A DNA stretch of 64,000 bases, taken from the NCBI GenBank assembly GCA_048128005.1, contig JBEUKZ010000001.1, positions 62,001 through 126,000 on the forward strand, given 5' to 3'. The stretch comes from Veleropilina oligotropha (Eukaryota). Below, piece by piece: positions 14,444 through 15,076 of the stretch. Position 1 is the stretch's first letter. Each line of letters opens with the position of its first letter. The notes below the pieces were generated by a model. That model did no database searches. It had not been told where the DNA came from and saw only the letters and a program-made list of their open reading frames with translations. Both the position numbers and the translations under genes were made by a program.

Positions 14444-15076
14444 TTAGTCGCCAGCTCCGATTTTTTTCAGCAGCTCTGCGCGACCCTCTAAACGACCATG
14501 CTCAATAAGCTCGCTCTGGGTCTGTGAAATCGCGGTGTGCGCCTTCCTACTCTTATCCCGAATTGATGCCTTCATGGCTTGGTATTTCTCCATCTCCCCT
14601 GTGACCAGTTGGAATACATCATCAGACATCACCCCGTCCGCTAAGGCCTTTGAGACATGGTCGGTTATGGTATTCAGCTTGCTGTCGGCCAGTACTCTGA
14701 TCTCGTCGTGCTTCCTAGCTTTCACCCCGAGGCGGCGGCTGATATATTTCCCACCCATGCTAGCGAGCCCACACCCCAACGCCGCTAGTTCCAGCACTAG
14801 GACAACAGGTGCAGCAACGATCGTGGACAACAGTCCGATGCCGGCGCTACCCATACCAAGGGTCGCGACGACTAGCCCGTTATCTATCCCGTCAACGACA
14901 TTAATGCCTCGTCGGTATTTTTTGTACAGGGCGGCTCGAGCGTCCCGTTCTCGTTCTAGCTGTCCCTGGAGCTCATTCACTTTCTGTAGTCGGAAAGACT
15001 GTGCCTCCGGCAGTTCCGAAGGCACATCGCCACCAAGCTGTGGGTACAGCGTTGGCGCTGAGGGCTTGTTGTTCAT
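14444..15076 (-). CDS. Membrane-associated coiled-coil protein with an N-terminal PSAP/LYPQL motif (210 aa)
   Basis: Intact ORF with a long central hydrophobic hairpin; conserved in E2 at 49970-50605. Confidence 0.85.
   Translation of the reverse strand: MNNKPSAPTLYPQLGGDVPSELPEAQSFRLQKVNELQGQLERERDARAALYKKYRRGINVVDGIDNGLVVATLGMGSAGIGLLSTIVAAPVVLVLELAALGCGLASMGGKYISRRLGVKARKHDEIRVLADSKLNTITDHVSKALADGVMSDDVFQLVTGEMEKYQAMKASIRDKSRKAHTAISQTQSELIEHGRLEGRAELLKKIGAGD

What the first reader, a model, noticed from the sequence alone, without database searches (positions are those of the whole stretch)
14444..15076. Tandem ESCRT late-domain-like motifs (PSAP + LYPxL) on a viral membrane protein
Seen: both elements begin this protein with NKPSAPTLYPQL, followed by a coiled coil and a long hydrophobic hairpin. 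Established: P(S/T)AP binds TSG101 and (L)YPx(n)L binds ALIX; enveloped viruses use such adjacent motifs for budding. Inference: these Polinton-like viruses may acquire a membrane or exit via ESCRT, which is not part of the standard non-enveloped Polinton/adenovirus model. Short motifs can arise by chance, and the two copies are close relatives.
Basis: partly seen in the sequence, partly recalled or inferred. Interest (0 to 1): 0.75.

Follow-up and report, generated by a model that had tools for sequence, protein, structure and literature searches.

The report
Conserved ESCRT-motif membrane protein in Polinton-like viruses
Two integrated Polinton-like viruses in this invertebrate-type genome each encode a small hairpin membrane protein whose loose N-terminal tail carries the two short motifs that enveloped viruses use to hijack the cell's budding machinery, and most distant relatives of the protein keep these motifs.

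Summary
ORF 14444..15076(-) and its copy 49973..50605(+) both begin with NKPSAPTLYPQL. After this tail come a long helix, a 44-residue hydrophobic hairpin with basic flanks, and a helical C-domain.

The motifs are not chance. Among 110 homologues at about 50-60% identity with a full N-tail, 107 keep [LIVM]YPx[LIV] and 90 keep [AP][ST]AP. Spacing varies and the surrounding residues do not align. Shuffled tails give about 1 of 110. Among more divergent cluster representatives the two motifs occur in either order (18 against 14). About a fifth of representatives have no tail at all.

The gene is a syntenic core gene at the end of the capsid module. That module holds an rve integrase, an A32 ATPase and a double-jelly-roll capsid protein. 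The elements are 15.5 kb and bounded by terminal inverted repeats.

The model is confident (pLDDT 90). Its best structural matches are uncharacterised proteins of invertebrate iridoviruses. A homodimer is predicted.

Best reading: a dimeric membrane adaptor that recruits TSG101 and ALIX for non-lytic release or envelopment. It is an analogue, not a homologue, of orbivirus NS3. Binding was not tested. I found no paper linking Polintons to late domains.

The parts
14444..15076 (-). Target gene, copy 1: 210-aa late-domain hairpin membrane protein
   Evidence: ORF and translation. 254 homologues at E<=0.01. 3552 representative clusters at E<=1e-3. AlphaFold2 pLDDT 90.2.
15053..15064 (-). PSAP motif (residues 5-8), of the TSG101-UEV-binding type P(T/S)AP
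   Evidence: Translation. P[ST]AP in 77 of 110 and [AP][ST]AP in 90 of 110 close homologues with a full tail; shuffles give a mean of 0.4.
15035..15049 (-). LYPQL motif (residues 10-14), of the ALIX-binding type (L)YPxL
   Evidence: Translation. [LIVM]YPx[LIV] in 107 of 110. Y11, P12 and L14 are at least 90% conserved in 104 sequences.
14891..15007 (-). Cytosolic part of helix 1 (residues 24-62), ending in the basic patch YKKYRRG just before the membrane segment
   Evidence: AlphaFold2 helix 24-82. Residues 46-62 have net charge +4. K52, K53 and Y54 are invariant in A1.
14750..14881 (-). Hydrophobic hairpin (residues 66-109) with a turn at 83-85 and conserved Pro90
   Evidence: Kyte-Doolittle windows above 1.5 from 67 to 109. 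Helix break at 83-85. P90 invariant in A1 and at least 90% conserved in A2.
14447..14749 (-). Cytosolic C-domain (residues 110-210): basic juxtamembrane stretch with invariant K122 and H123, the predicted dimer interface, and helix 3
   Evidence: K122 and H123 invariant in 104 sequences. Dimer interface at residues 121-136 and 153-172.
49973..50605 (+). Target gene, copy 2 (PSAP 49985-49996; LYPQL 50000-50014; hairpin 50168-50299)
   Evidence: 91% identical to copy 1.
13080..28540 (.). Element 1: a 15.5-kb GC-rich Polinton-like insertion bounded by 225-nt terminal inverted repeats (99% complementary)
   Evidence: Inverted repeat I15, 13080-13304 / 28316-28540. GC 55% against 35% in the flanks. 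Gene content.
36033..51593 (.). Element 2: a related insertion in the opposite orientation, with terminal inverted repeats of at least 85 nt (96% complementary)
   Evidence: Inverted repeat I25, 36033-36117 / 51509-51593, and arms I1-I24 between the two elements. Gene content.
44942..46279 (-). Major capsid protein of element 2 (element 1 copy inside 18327..20045 +)
   Evidence: Weak Pfam Capsid_N hit, E 0.005. A low-confidence model (pLDDT 46) still gives 101 BFVD matches at E<=0.001, dominated by double-jelly-roll capsid proteins of giant viruses, ascovirus, virophages and adomavirus.
44392..44970 (-). A32-type packaging ATPase of element 2
   Evidence: Pfam Pox_A32, E 3.1e-10.
41156..42160 (-). 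rve integrase of element 2 (element 1: 22842..23831 +)
   Evidence: Pfam rve, E 3.5e-8 and 9.4e-8.
48853..49626 (+). 257-aa protein that precedes the target in most related contigs (element 1: 15555..16205 -); candidate capsid-module partner, function unknown
   Evidence: A homologue lies next to the target in 27 of 80 metagenome loci.

Best explanation
The protein is a virus-encoded, dimeric, hairpin-anchored membrane adaptor. Both of its ends face the cytosol. Its flexible N-terminal tail displays a P(S/T)AP motif, the ligand type of TSG101 (ESCRT-I), and an (L)YPxL motif, the ligand type of ALIX.

When the element is expressed, the protein would insert into a cellular membrane through its hydrophobic hairpin. 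It would pair through the conserved helix after the hairpin. It would then recruit ESCRT-I, ALIX, ESCRT-III and VPS4 to bud membrane away from the cytosol.

The most likely purpose is non-lytic release or (quasi-)envelopment of the double-jelly-roll capsids made by the neighbouring genes. In this it would act like orbivirus NS3, with the C-domain as the probable link to the particle.

Shown here: the motifs, their conservation, the architecture, the synteny and the virus-like context. Inferred: the topology, ESCRT binding, the link to the capsid and the egress role.
For: 1. Selection on the motifs.
- Of 120 listed homologues, 110 have a full tail. Of these, 110 keep YP, 107 keep [LIVM]YPx[LIV], 77 keep P[ST]AP and 90 keep [AP][ST]AP.
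- Spacing between the motifs runs from -12 to +20 residues.
- In the rest of the protein each motif occurs in 1 of 120.
- 500 tail shuffles give at most 6 of 110.
- In 96 divergent representatives the commonest gapped 4-mers are YPxL (64) and PxAP (37). Among the 32 with both motifs, YPxL comes first in 18 and PTAP first in 14.
- Y11, P12 and L14 are at least 90% conserved in 104 sequences down to 30% identity, while the rest of the tail does not align.

2. Accessibility.
- Tail 1-23 has no secondary structure and pLDDT about 60.
- The only hydrophobic stretch is 66-109. Each flank has net charge +4, which by the positive-inside rule puts both ends in the cytosol.

3. Context.
- The gene order integrase, three small membrane proteins, A32 ATPase, capsid protein, coiled-coil/TM protein, tail-anchored 424-aa protein, 257-aa protein, target is kept in 6 independent contigs where the target is 37-56% identical.
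- It is the only one of 20 element ORFs with P[ST]AP.
- dN/dS between the two copies is 0.137.

4. Pairing. The homodimer model scores 0.61, against 0.00 for the best of 3 controls.
- The mark was reached by 20 of 30 proteins solved as pairs of one chain and by 1 of 23 solved as single chains.
- On eukaryotes it was reached by 17 of 29 pairs and by 0 of 30 single chains.
- The runs agree in at least 47% of contacts, and partner pLDDT is at least 66.
- My own alignment was used, so these counts hold only roughly.
- The interface falls on the most conserved residues, 121-136.

5. Precedent.
- BTV NS3 has N-terminal late domains (PPXY/PSAP), a coiled coil, membrane-proximal polybasic motifs, two TM domains, and cytoplasmic N- and C-termini. 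Its C-terminus binds the outer capsid, and PSAP-TSG101 is needed for budding release (PMC6949946, passages).
- An iridovirus uses YPXnL, ASAP and PPxY proteins with Alix, Tsg101 and Nedd4 for budding (PMC4880917, passages).

6. Relatives in true viruses. The best structural matches are uncharacterised proteins of three invertebrate iridoviruses (E 6e-9 to 6e-8, TMq 0.66-0.76, 23-27% identity).
Against: - No binding test was possible. No TSG101 or ALIX sequence was available to the tools.
- P[ST]AP is not universal. It occurs in 77 of 110 close homologues and 36 of 96 representatives. Variants ASAP and ATAP are frequent.
- Of 109 representatives with a defined N-terminus, 22 have a tail of 14 residues or fewer, and 21 of these carry no motif. 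Of the 87 with a tail of 15 or more, 10 have neither motif.
- In ORFs from the metagenome loci, a crude filter passed 62 as full length. It also passed some fragments that start at an internal Met. Of the 62, 47 have YPx1-3[LIV] and only 16 have P[ST]AP.
- YPxL also fits the general YxxPhi sorting signal.
- No fusogen or glycoprotein was recognised in the elements, so an enveloped particle would lack an obvious entry protein.
- The many other membrane proteins of the element fit an internal capsid membrane equally well.
- The homologues are related, so the counts are not independent events.
- Expression is unknown.
Confidence: 0.6

Rival explanations
1. The motifs do recruit ESCRT, but not for particle exit. 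Possible purposes are remodelling or sealing the membrane that becomes an internal capsid membrane, building a replication or assembly compartment, sorting the protein or bound host proteins into multivesicular bodies, or a role during entry.
For: - By eye in the translations, six or seven of about 14 element proteins have TM segments. One is a tail-anchored 424-aa protein and one is a coiled-coil protein with C-terminal TM helices. This pattern is typical of double-jelly-roll viruses with an internal membrane.
- The closest structural relatives are in iridoviruses, which have an internal membrane (the membrane is my own knowledge).
- No fusogen was recognised.
Against: - Tandem PTAP plus YPxL on a cytosolic tail is the classical arrangement of budding proteins (PMC4880917 introduction).
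- The NS3 precedent links exactly this architecture to exit of a non-enveloped capsid.
- The gene sits at the end of the morphogenetic module.
Confidence: 0.2
2. The motifs are trafficking signals unrelated to ESCRT. YPxL would act as a YxxPhi adaptor-complex signal and the proline-rich PxAP as a docking site for some other domain, steering the hairpin protein to a particular organelle.
For: YP[x]L formally matches YxxPhi. P[ST]AP is dispensable in many members.
Against: - Pro at Y+1 is kept in 110 of 110 and a hydrophobic residue at Y-1 in 107 of 110. YxxPhi does not require either, but the (L)YPxL class does.
- PTAP and PSAP are equally common, 18 each in the unbiased 4-mer count, and are the most frequent fully specified 4-mers, which matches the P(T/S)AP definition exactly.
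- The two motifs co-occur in 72-84 of 110.
Confidence: 0.12
3. Chance or phylogenetic inertia: short motifs inherited from a recent common ancestor, with no function.
For: The two window copies are close relatives (91%), and short motifs are common in proteomes.
Against: - The motifs persist down to 30% identity while the flanking residues, the spacing (-12 to +20) and even the order change.
- Shuffles never exceed 6 of 110.
- Three split or decayed copies in the loci have lost the motif. L053 reads LYSEL, and L077 and L078 read IYANL.
Confidence: 0.03

Closest known systems
Orbivirus NS3 (bluetongue virus)
   Same: A small protein of about 210-230 aa. It has N-terminal late-domain motifs including PSAP, a coiled-coil region, basic motifs just before TM1, two TM segments, and both ends in the cytosol. 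It is encoded by a virus with a non-enveloped icosahedral capsid and bridges that capsid to ESCRT for non-lytic budding (PMC6949946, passages).
   Different: No detectable homology: 0 Pfam families at E<=0.01 and no orbivirus protein in the 50 best BFVD matches. NS3 pairs PSAP with PPXY, whereas this protein pairs it with YPxL. NS3 has a glycosylated loop between its TM segments, whereas here the turn is about 3 residues. NS3 is from an RNA virus; this protein is from an integrating DNA element.
Retroviral late domains (HIV-1 p6 PTAP plus YPXnL; EIAV p9 YPDL)
   Same: The same two motif classes in tandem on a disordered segment. PTAP binds Tsg101 and YPXnL binds Alix (PMC4880917, passages).
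   Different: In retroviruses the motifs are part of the capsid polyprotein Gag, which binds membrane peripherally. Here they sit on a separate integral hairpin membrane protein.
Uncharacterised proteins of invertebrate iridoviruses (UniProt A0A5B8RH66, A0A068QKD3, S6DF61)
   Same: Best structural matches of the model: E 6.3e-9 to 6.1e-8, TMq 0.66-0.76, 200-208 aligned columns, 23-27% identity. They are probably true homologues.
   Different: Their sequences could not be fetched, so it is unknown whether they carry the motifs. They lie in genomes more than ten times larger (genome size is my own knowledge).
Iridovirus (tiger frog virus) L-domain proteins VP031L, VP065L and VP093L
   Same: A double-jelly-roll DNA virus whose budding uses Alix, Tsg101 and Nedd4 through YPXnL, ASAP and PPxY motifs (PMC4880917).
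   Different: There the motifs are spread over three proteins. No relation to this family was tested.
Maverick/Polinton elements (group 2, with an SF1 helicase) and nematode Mavericks with the MFUS-1 fusogen
   Same: Animal-genome elements with a capsid protein, A32 ATPase and rve integrase, in which pPolB is often replaced by SF1/SF3 helicases (preprint 10.64898/2026.06.19.733378, passages). Enveloped particles have been proposed for nematode Mavericks (preprint 10.1101/2022.07.12.499685, passages).
   Different: Neither text mentions ESCRT, budding or late domains (0 occurrences). No gB-like fusogen was recognised here.
BAR-domain proteins (Vps5/SNX1, F-BAR, I-BAR)
   Same: Three long antiparallel helices and a predicted symmetric dimer. 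Best VIA match is Vps5: Z 12.7, rmsd 4.1 A, 168 aligned residues (dimer).
   Different: Z below about 13 is common for helical bundles by the tool's own note. Foldseek found nothing at E<=0.001. BAR domains have no transmembrane hairpin. This is a lead only.

Membership tests
Viral late-domain (L-domain) budding proteins | A P(T/S)AP motif | tested here: met
   PSAP at residues 5-8 in both copies. P[ST]AP in 77 of 110 close homologues.
Viral late-domain (L-domain) budding proteins | A YPXnL motif (n = 1-3) | tested here: met
   LYPQL at residues 10-14. YPx1-3L in 102 of 110 and [LIVM]YPx[LIV] in 107 of 110.
Viral late-domain (L-domain) budding proteins | Motifs exposed to the cytosol on a flexible segment | tested here: inconclusive
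   Prediction only. The tail has no secondary structure and pLDDT about 60. Both flanks of the hairpin have net charge +4. No experimental topology exists.
Viral late-domain (L-domain) budding proteins | Direct binding to TSG101 UEV and to ALIX V domain | not testable with these tools
   No TSG101 or ALIX sequence was available. No genome is held for the window.
Viral late-domain (L-domain) budding proteins | A release defect when the motif is mutated | not testable with these tools
   This needs an experiment.
Orbivirus NS3 | Sequence or fold homology to NS3 | tested here: inconclusive
   No Pfam family at E<=0.01. No orbivirus entry in the 50 best BFVD matches. I did not verify that an NS3 model is in either library.
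Orbivirus NS3 | Architecture: late domains, coiled coil, polybasic patch, two TM segments, cytosolic C-domain | tested here: met
   set against the description in PMC6949946. This is an analogy, not membership.
Maverick/Polinton-like integrating virus | Double-jelly-roll major capsid protein | tested here: met
   101 BFVD matches at E<=0.001, mostly major capsid proteins, with TMq 0.31-0.46 among those named as such. The model itself is of low confidence (pLDDT 46), and the Pfam Capsid_N hit is below threshold (E 0.005).
Maverick/Polinton-like integrating virus | A32/FtsK-type packaging ATPase | tested here: met
   Pfam Pox_A32: E 3.1e-10, 40.4 bits against a cutoff of 22.8.
Maverick/Polinton-like integrating virus | rve integrase and terminal inverted repeats | tested here: met
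   rve E 3.5e-8 and 9.4e-8. Terminal inverted repeats of 225 nt at 99% and 85 nt at 96%.
Maverick/Polinton-like integrating virus | Protein-primed PolB and an adenovirus-type protease (classical Polintons) | tested here: not met
   No PolB or protease family among the 27 ORFs scanned. In their place are SF1-helicase proteins (AAA_30, AAA_19). This fits the helicase-bearing 'group 2' or Polinton-like types described.
Iridovirus uncharacterised protein family (BFVD hits) | Shared fold over the whole length, with detectable sequence identity | tested here: met
   E 6.3e-9, TMq 0.76, 200 columns, 27% identity, and two further iridoviruses. No reciprocal sequence test was possible.

The most novel reading that the evidence does not exclude
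A very large lineage of Maverick/Polinton-like viruses of invertebrates leaves cells without lysis. At least 3552 protein clusters at 50% identity belong to this protein's family. The particles would exit as ESCRT-budded, membrane-wrapped capsids. The driver would be a dedicated dimeric, possibly BAR-like, hairpin protein that is shared with invertebrate iridoviruses and is functionally convergent with orbivirus NS3. This would be the missing exit step that lets such integrated elements move between cells, reach the germline and cross species.
Probability: 0.4. Interest if true: 0.85.

Novelty: new variant of a known kind. Interest (0 to 1): 0.72.

Why it matters
Polintons and Polinton-like viruses are modelled on adenoviruses and virophages as naked capsids. 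How they leave a cell and spread is unknown, and no particle has been seen for the animal elements.

A conserved, dedicated late-domain membrane protein gives a concrete and cheap-to-test hypothesis for exit and possible envelopment. The protein can be expressed alone, scored for vesicle release, and the motifs mutated. It also adds an independent case of the NS3 solution in a DNA virus. The structural link to invertebrate iridoviruses points to gene exchange between small integrating viruses and giant-virus relatives.

Bivalve genomes carry very large loads of such elements (preprint 10.1101/2025.04.19.649669, passages), so the family is abundant.

Tried and rejected
- IMG/VR scan with alignment A1: 193 pattern matches, none confirmed.
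- Whole genome of the window: not held. Cluster-member look-up: service off. Host and accession names are therefore unknown. The only taxon hint is the Atlas ('commonest Mollusca', with a phylum known for 1 and 11 members).
- Earlier findings of this scan: nothing by place, words or sequence.
- PHROGs: no family for the target, the capsid protein or five of their six neighbours. The 437-aa coiled-coil protein had one weak hit (phrog_6165, E 0.004), which I did not use.
- Profile of 7 capsid proteins against PDB sequences: only a spurious dUTPase hit at E 0.055.
- Foldseek of the target against PDB: nothing at E<=0.001.
- VIA-wide: BAR-like rows up to Z 12.7, within the range the tool calls common for helical bundles.
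- No orbivirus NS3 among the 50 best BFVD rows.
- RNA runs: no RNA holder was listed.
- Pfam on 8 flank ORFs: nothing.
- Target-site duplications were not resolved by eye at either element's ends.
- Papers. 'polinton' + 'ESCRT' gave 2 papers with 1-2 mentions of each term and neither in title or abstract (listing only). 'adintovirus' + 'ESCRT' gave 0. 'Mavericks' + 'late domain' gave 0. Of the 20 rows listed for the three-term search, none contained 'polinton'.
- Rejected reading: that the hydrophobic stretch is the buried core of a soluble bundle. It is 44 residues long, sits at the tip of the helical hairpin, is rich in Gly and Ala, and is bracketed by basic patches.
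Full report
**1. What is there**

The window is AT-rich DNA (about 35% GC). It holds two GC-rich islands (about 55% GC) at roughly 13-28.5 kb and 36-51.6 kb.

- Each island is bounded by terminal inverted repeats. The arms are 13080-13304 / 28316-28540 (225 nt, 99% complementary) and 36033-36117 / 51509-51593 (85 nt, 96%).
- The two islands are inverted copies of related elements. Their structural-gene DNA is 81-95% identical.
- Each island encodes an rve integrase (Pfam E 3.5e-8 and 9.4e-8) and an A32-type packaging ATPase (E 3.1e-10; the frame is interrupted in element 1).
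- Each also encodes an SF1-helicase protein (AAA_30/AAA_19) and a 445-aa protein with a sub-threshold Capsid_N hit.
- A model of that 445-aa protein from only 7 sequences is poor (pLDDT 46).
- Even so, it gives 101 BFVD matches at E<=0.001. Most are double-jelly-roll major capsid proteins of giant viruses, ascovirus, adomavirus, virophages and mavirus, plus one adintovirus entry named as a penton protein.

These are therefore integrated Polinton-like viruses of the helicase-bearing kind. A 2026 preprint describes this kind for animal genomes, molluscs included (10.64898/2026.06.19.733378, passages read). The only hint to the host is the Atlas: clusters nearest to the target are 'commonest Mollusca', resting on very few records.

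**2. The observation**

- ORF 14444..15076(-) gives 210 aa starting MNNKPSAPTLYPQL.
- The copy at 49973..50605(+) starts MDNKPSAPTLYPQL.
- The two are 191/210 identical.
- dS is 0.393, dN is 0.054 and dN/dS is 0.137, so they diverged under purifying selection.
- Residues 66-109 are the only hydrophobic stretch.
- The 17 residues on each side of that stretch have net charge +4.
- AlphaFold2 with 104 sequences gives pLDDT 90.2 and pTM 0.77.
- The model has no secondary structure in residues 1-23 (pLDDT about 60) and helices at 24-82, 86-147 and 152-207.

The description 'late-domain-like tail, coiled coil, long hydrophobic hairpin' is correct.

**3. Is it more than chance?**

The protein has 254 homologues at E<=0.01 in the word-indexed search. 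The 120 listed are 48-61% identical. The exhaustive profile search finds 3552 clusters at 50% identity with E<=1e-3, and 1275 at E<=1e-10.

Among the 120 listed, 110 have at least 38 residues before the KKY anchor. I set aside the other 10 as N-terminally short. Counts among the 110:

| Motif in the N-tail | Observed | 500 shuffles of the tails |
|---|---|---|
| YP | 110 of 110 | mean 25.5, maximum 39 |
| [LIVM]YPx[LIV] | 107 of 110 | mean 0.9, maximum 6 |
| P[ST]AP | 77 of 110 | mean 0.4, maximum 4 |
| [AP][ST]AP | 90 of 110 | mean 0.7, maximum 5 |
| [AP][ST]AP with YPx1-3L | 84 of 110 (72 with strict P[ST]AP) | not run |

- The distance between the two motifs ranges from -12 to +20 residues.
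- In the rest of the protein each motif occurs in 1 of 120.

The alignments show the same picture. Y11 and P12 are conserved while the residues around them are gapped and variable. In 104 sequences down to 30% identity, Y11, P12 and L14 are among the 22 columns conserved at 90% or more.

The 150 listed representatives differ from each other by more than 50%. A looser parse gave 96 with a tail of 8-90 residues.

- YPx[LIVM] is present in 74 and P[ST]AP in 36. Both are present in 32.
- Among those 32, YPxL comes first in 18 and PTAP first in 14, often as a fused YPxLP[ST]AP.
- An unbiased count of gapped 4-mers ranks YPxL first (64). PxAP has 37, and PTAP and PSAP have 18 each.

Re-spacing and re-ordering of two short motifs on an otherwise unalignable tail is what selection on independent linear motifs produces.

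**4. Results against a universal requirement**

- A stricter parse found 109 representatives with a Met start and a recognisable helix anchor. The other 41 were dropped as fragments or unparsable.
- Of the 109, 22 have a tail of 14 residues or fewer, and 21 of these carry no motif.
- Of the 87 with a tail of 15 or more, 73 have YPx[LIVM], 46 have [AP][ST]AP, and 10 have neither.
- In ORFs from the 80 metagenome loci, my crude filter passed 62 as full length. It also let through some internal-Met fragments.
- Of those 62, 47 have YPx1-3[LIV] and only 16 have P[ST]AP.

YPxL is therefore the core motif. P(S/T)AP is frequent but facultative. About a fifth of the family appears to be tail-less.

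**5. Context**

A scan of metagenome contigs gave 112 relatives, of which 80 were kept.

- Six contigs show the same gene order: L006, L018, L026, L036, L039 and L057. In them the target is 37-56% identical.
- The order is integrase, three small membrane proteins, A32 ATPase, capsid protein, coiled-coil/TM protein, tail-anchored 424-aa protein, 257-aa protein, sometimes a 120-aa protein, then the target.
- The 257-aa gene lies beside the target in 27 of the 80 loci.
- In the window, the target's start codon overlaps the stop of the preceding ORF by 4 nt.
- Of 20 ORFs of the two elements, only the target has P[ST]AP. Two unrelated ORFs each have a stray YPx3-type match.

The target is thus a core gene at the end of the morphogenetic module and the element's only late-domain carrier.

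**6. Fold and relatives**

- In BFVD, the best matches are uncharacterised proteins of Iridovirus Liz-CrIV (E 6.3e-9, TMq 0.76, 27% identity), Armadillidium vulgare iridescent virus (E 1.9e-8) and invertebrate iridescent virus 22 (E 6.1e-8).
- Weaker rows include proteins of giant viruses named as 2TM effector domains.
- I could not fetch the iridovirus sequences, so I do not know whether they carry the motifs.
- Against solved structures, Foldseek finds nothing at E<=0.001.
- VIA-wide lists BAR, F-BAR and I-BAR domains first (Vps5: Z 12.7, rmsd 4.1 A, 168 aligned residues). The tool warns that Z below about 13 is common for helical bundles.
- No Pfam or PHROG family matches.

A two-copy complex prediction passes.

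- The score is 0.61, against 0.00 for the best of 3 controls.
- The mark was reached by 20 of 30 proteins solved as pairs of one chain and by 1 of 23 solved as single chains.
- On eukaryotes it was reached by 17 of 29 pairs and by 0 of 30 single chains.
- The runs agree in at least 47% of contacts, and partner pLDDT is at least 66.
- My own alignment was used, so these counts hold only roughly.
- The interface (residues 121-136 and 153-172) coincides with the most conserved part of the family: K122 and H123 are invariant, and L129, A130 and K133 are invariant in A1.

This supports pairing but does not show it.

**7. How it most likely works**

Established knowledge, as restated in PMC4880917 (passages): P(T/S)AP binds Tsg101, YPXnL binds Alix, and viruses use them, often in tandem, to reach ESCRT-III/VPS4 for membrane scission.

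The closest functional precedent is bluetongue virus NS3 (PMC6949946, passages).

- NS3 has N-terminal late domains (PPXY/PSAP), a coiled-coil motif, two membrane-proximal polybasic motifs and two TM domains.
- Its N- and C-termini are cytoplasmic, and the C-terminus binds the outer capsid.
- PSAP-TSG101 is needed for budding release of an otherwise non-enveloped capsid.

The present protein repeats this plan point by point: a late-domain tail, a long helix, the YKKYRRG basic patch, a hairpin, a basic patch, and a helical C-domain. It does so without detectable homology.

I therefore propose a dimeric hairpin adaptor that recruits TSG101 and ALIX to the membrane where capsids dock. This would give non-lytic, membrane-wrapped release.

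- Shown: the motifs, their conservation, the architecture, the synteny and the virus context.
- Inferred: the cytosolic topology (positive-inside rule), ESCRT binding, capsid docking by the C-domain and the egress role.
- Confidence is about 0.6.

Rivals:

- ESCRT is recruited for internal-membrane biogenesis, sorting or entry (0.2).
- The motifs are non-ESCRT trafficking signals (0.12).
- The motifs reflect chance or inertia (0.03).

**8. Comparison and novelty**

- The elements themselves are a known kind.
- Late domains are a known device.
- An NS3-like adaptor in a double-jelly-roll integrating DNA virus is, as far as I could find, not described.
- 'polinton' + 'ESCRT' returns 2 papers, each with only 1-2 mentions of each term and neither in title or abstract (listing only).
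- 'adintovirus' + 'ESCRT' returns 0, and 'Mavericks' + 'late domain' returns 0.
- The Maverick-fusogen preprint proposes enveloped particles, but ESCRT, budding and vesicle occur 0 times in it.
- The Polinton-like virus framework preprint has 0 occurrences of 'membrane' or 'ESCRT'.
- bioRxiv supplements are closed and subscription papers are not searched, so an annotation there could have been missed.

I file this as a new variant of a known kind. The protein family is uncharacterised, the mechanism class is known, and the virus group is unexpected.

**9. What remains open**

- Binding to TSG101 and ALIX.
- Topology.
- Whether the iridovirus homologues carry the motifs.
- What the tail-less fifth does.
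- Whether any entry protein exists for a wrapped particle.
- Whether the elements are expressed. No RNA holder was listed.

Noticed in passing
window 13080-28540 versus 36033-51593: The two elements lie in opposite orientation. Their morphogenetic modules are 81-95% identical at the DNA level. Their replication and integration modules differ much more: the integrase arms are only 70% complementary, and the helicase proteins are 809 aa against 693 aa with different partner ORFs of 509 and 594 aa. This looks like a module swap between otherwise sister elements.
   Followed up: partly
window 19996-20358 and 20280-20651 (+): The A32 ATPase frame of element 1 is interrupted, giving two overlapping ORFs. 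The element 2 copy, 44392..44970(-), is whole. Element 1 is therefore probably defective despite its 99% identical terminal repeats.
   Followed up: no
window 37497-39281 and 39085-41166 (+): In element 2 the 594-aa ORF and the 693-aa SF1-helicase ORF overlap by about 200 nt in different frames. This could be a broken fusion gene or a programmed overlap. In element 1 the two equivalents are separate and adjacent.
   Followed up: no
window 23828-26257(-) and 39085-41166(+), C-termini: By eye, both helicase proteins end in a Cys/His-rich stretch that looks like an HNH-type nuclease. No Pfam hit supported this.
   Followed up: no
window 13939-14361(-) and 50688-51056(+): A small Cys-rich ORF with a signal-peptide-like N-terminus lies just downstream of the target in both elements. 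The DNA arms 14300-14412 / 50637-50749 are 96% complementary. It has no family hit and was found in only 1 of 80 related loci.
   Followed up: partly
both elements: 16165-17439, 17502-18698, 20693-21448, 21315-21863, 22119-22577 and their element 2 copies: By eye, six or seven of about 14 proteins per element carry TM segments. They include a tail-anchored 424/436-aa protein and a coiled-coil protein ending in several TM helices. This unusually membrane-rich gene set suggests a lipid-containing particle.
   Followed up: no
loci L053, L077, L078 (and the split ORFs in L059, L060, L076): L053, L077 and L078, of which the latter two are split or frameshifted, have mutated motifs (LYSEL, IYANL). 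Split copies in L059, L060 and L076 still carry YPxL, so decay does not always remove it. This is anecdotal.
   Followed up: partly
model of window 14444-15076(-): The fold is a three-long-helix arrangement. Its best solved look-alikes are BAR, F-BAR and I-BAR domains (Z up to 12.7), and a symmetric dimer is predicted. This may be only a common helical arrangement.
   Followed up: partly
window 26376-27905(-): The N-terminus of the 509-aa protein matches the Rho_N / SAP-like DNA- or RNA-binding motif (Pfam E 1.4e-5).
   Followed up: no
window 10001-12000 and 31248-31570: Host DNA features. One stretch has only 19.5% GC. There is also a tandem array with 13/26-nt periodicity. An ORF at 28713-29312(-), next to element 1, looks by eye like a retrotransposon reverse-transcriptase fragment, but Pfam gave no hit.
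   Followed up: no
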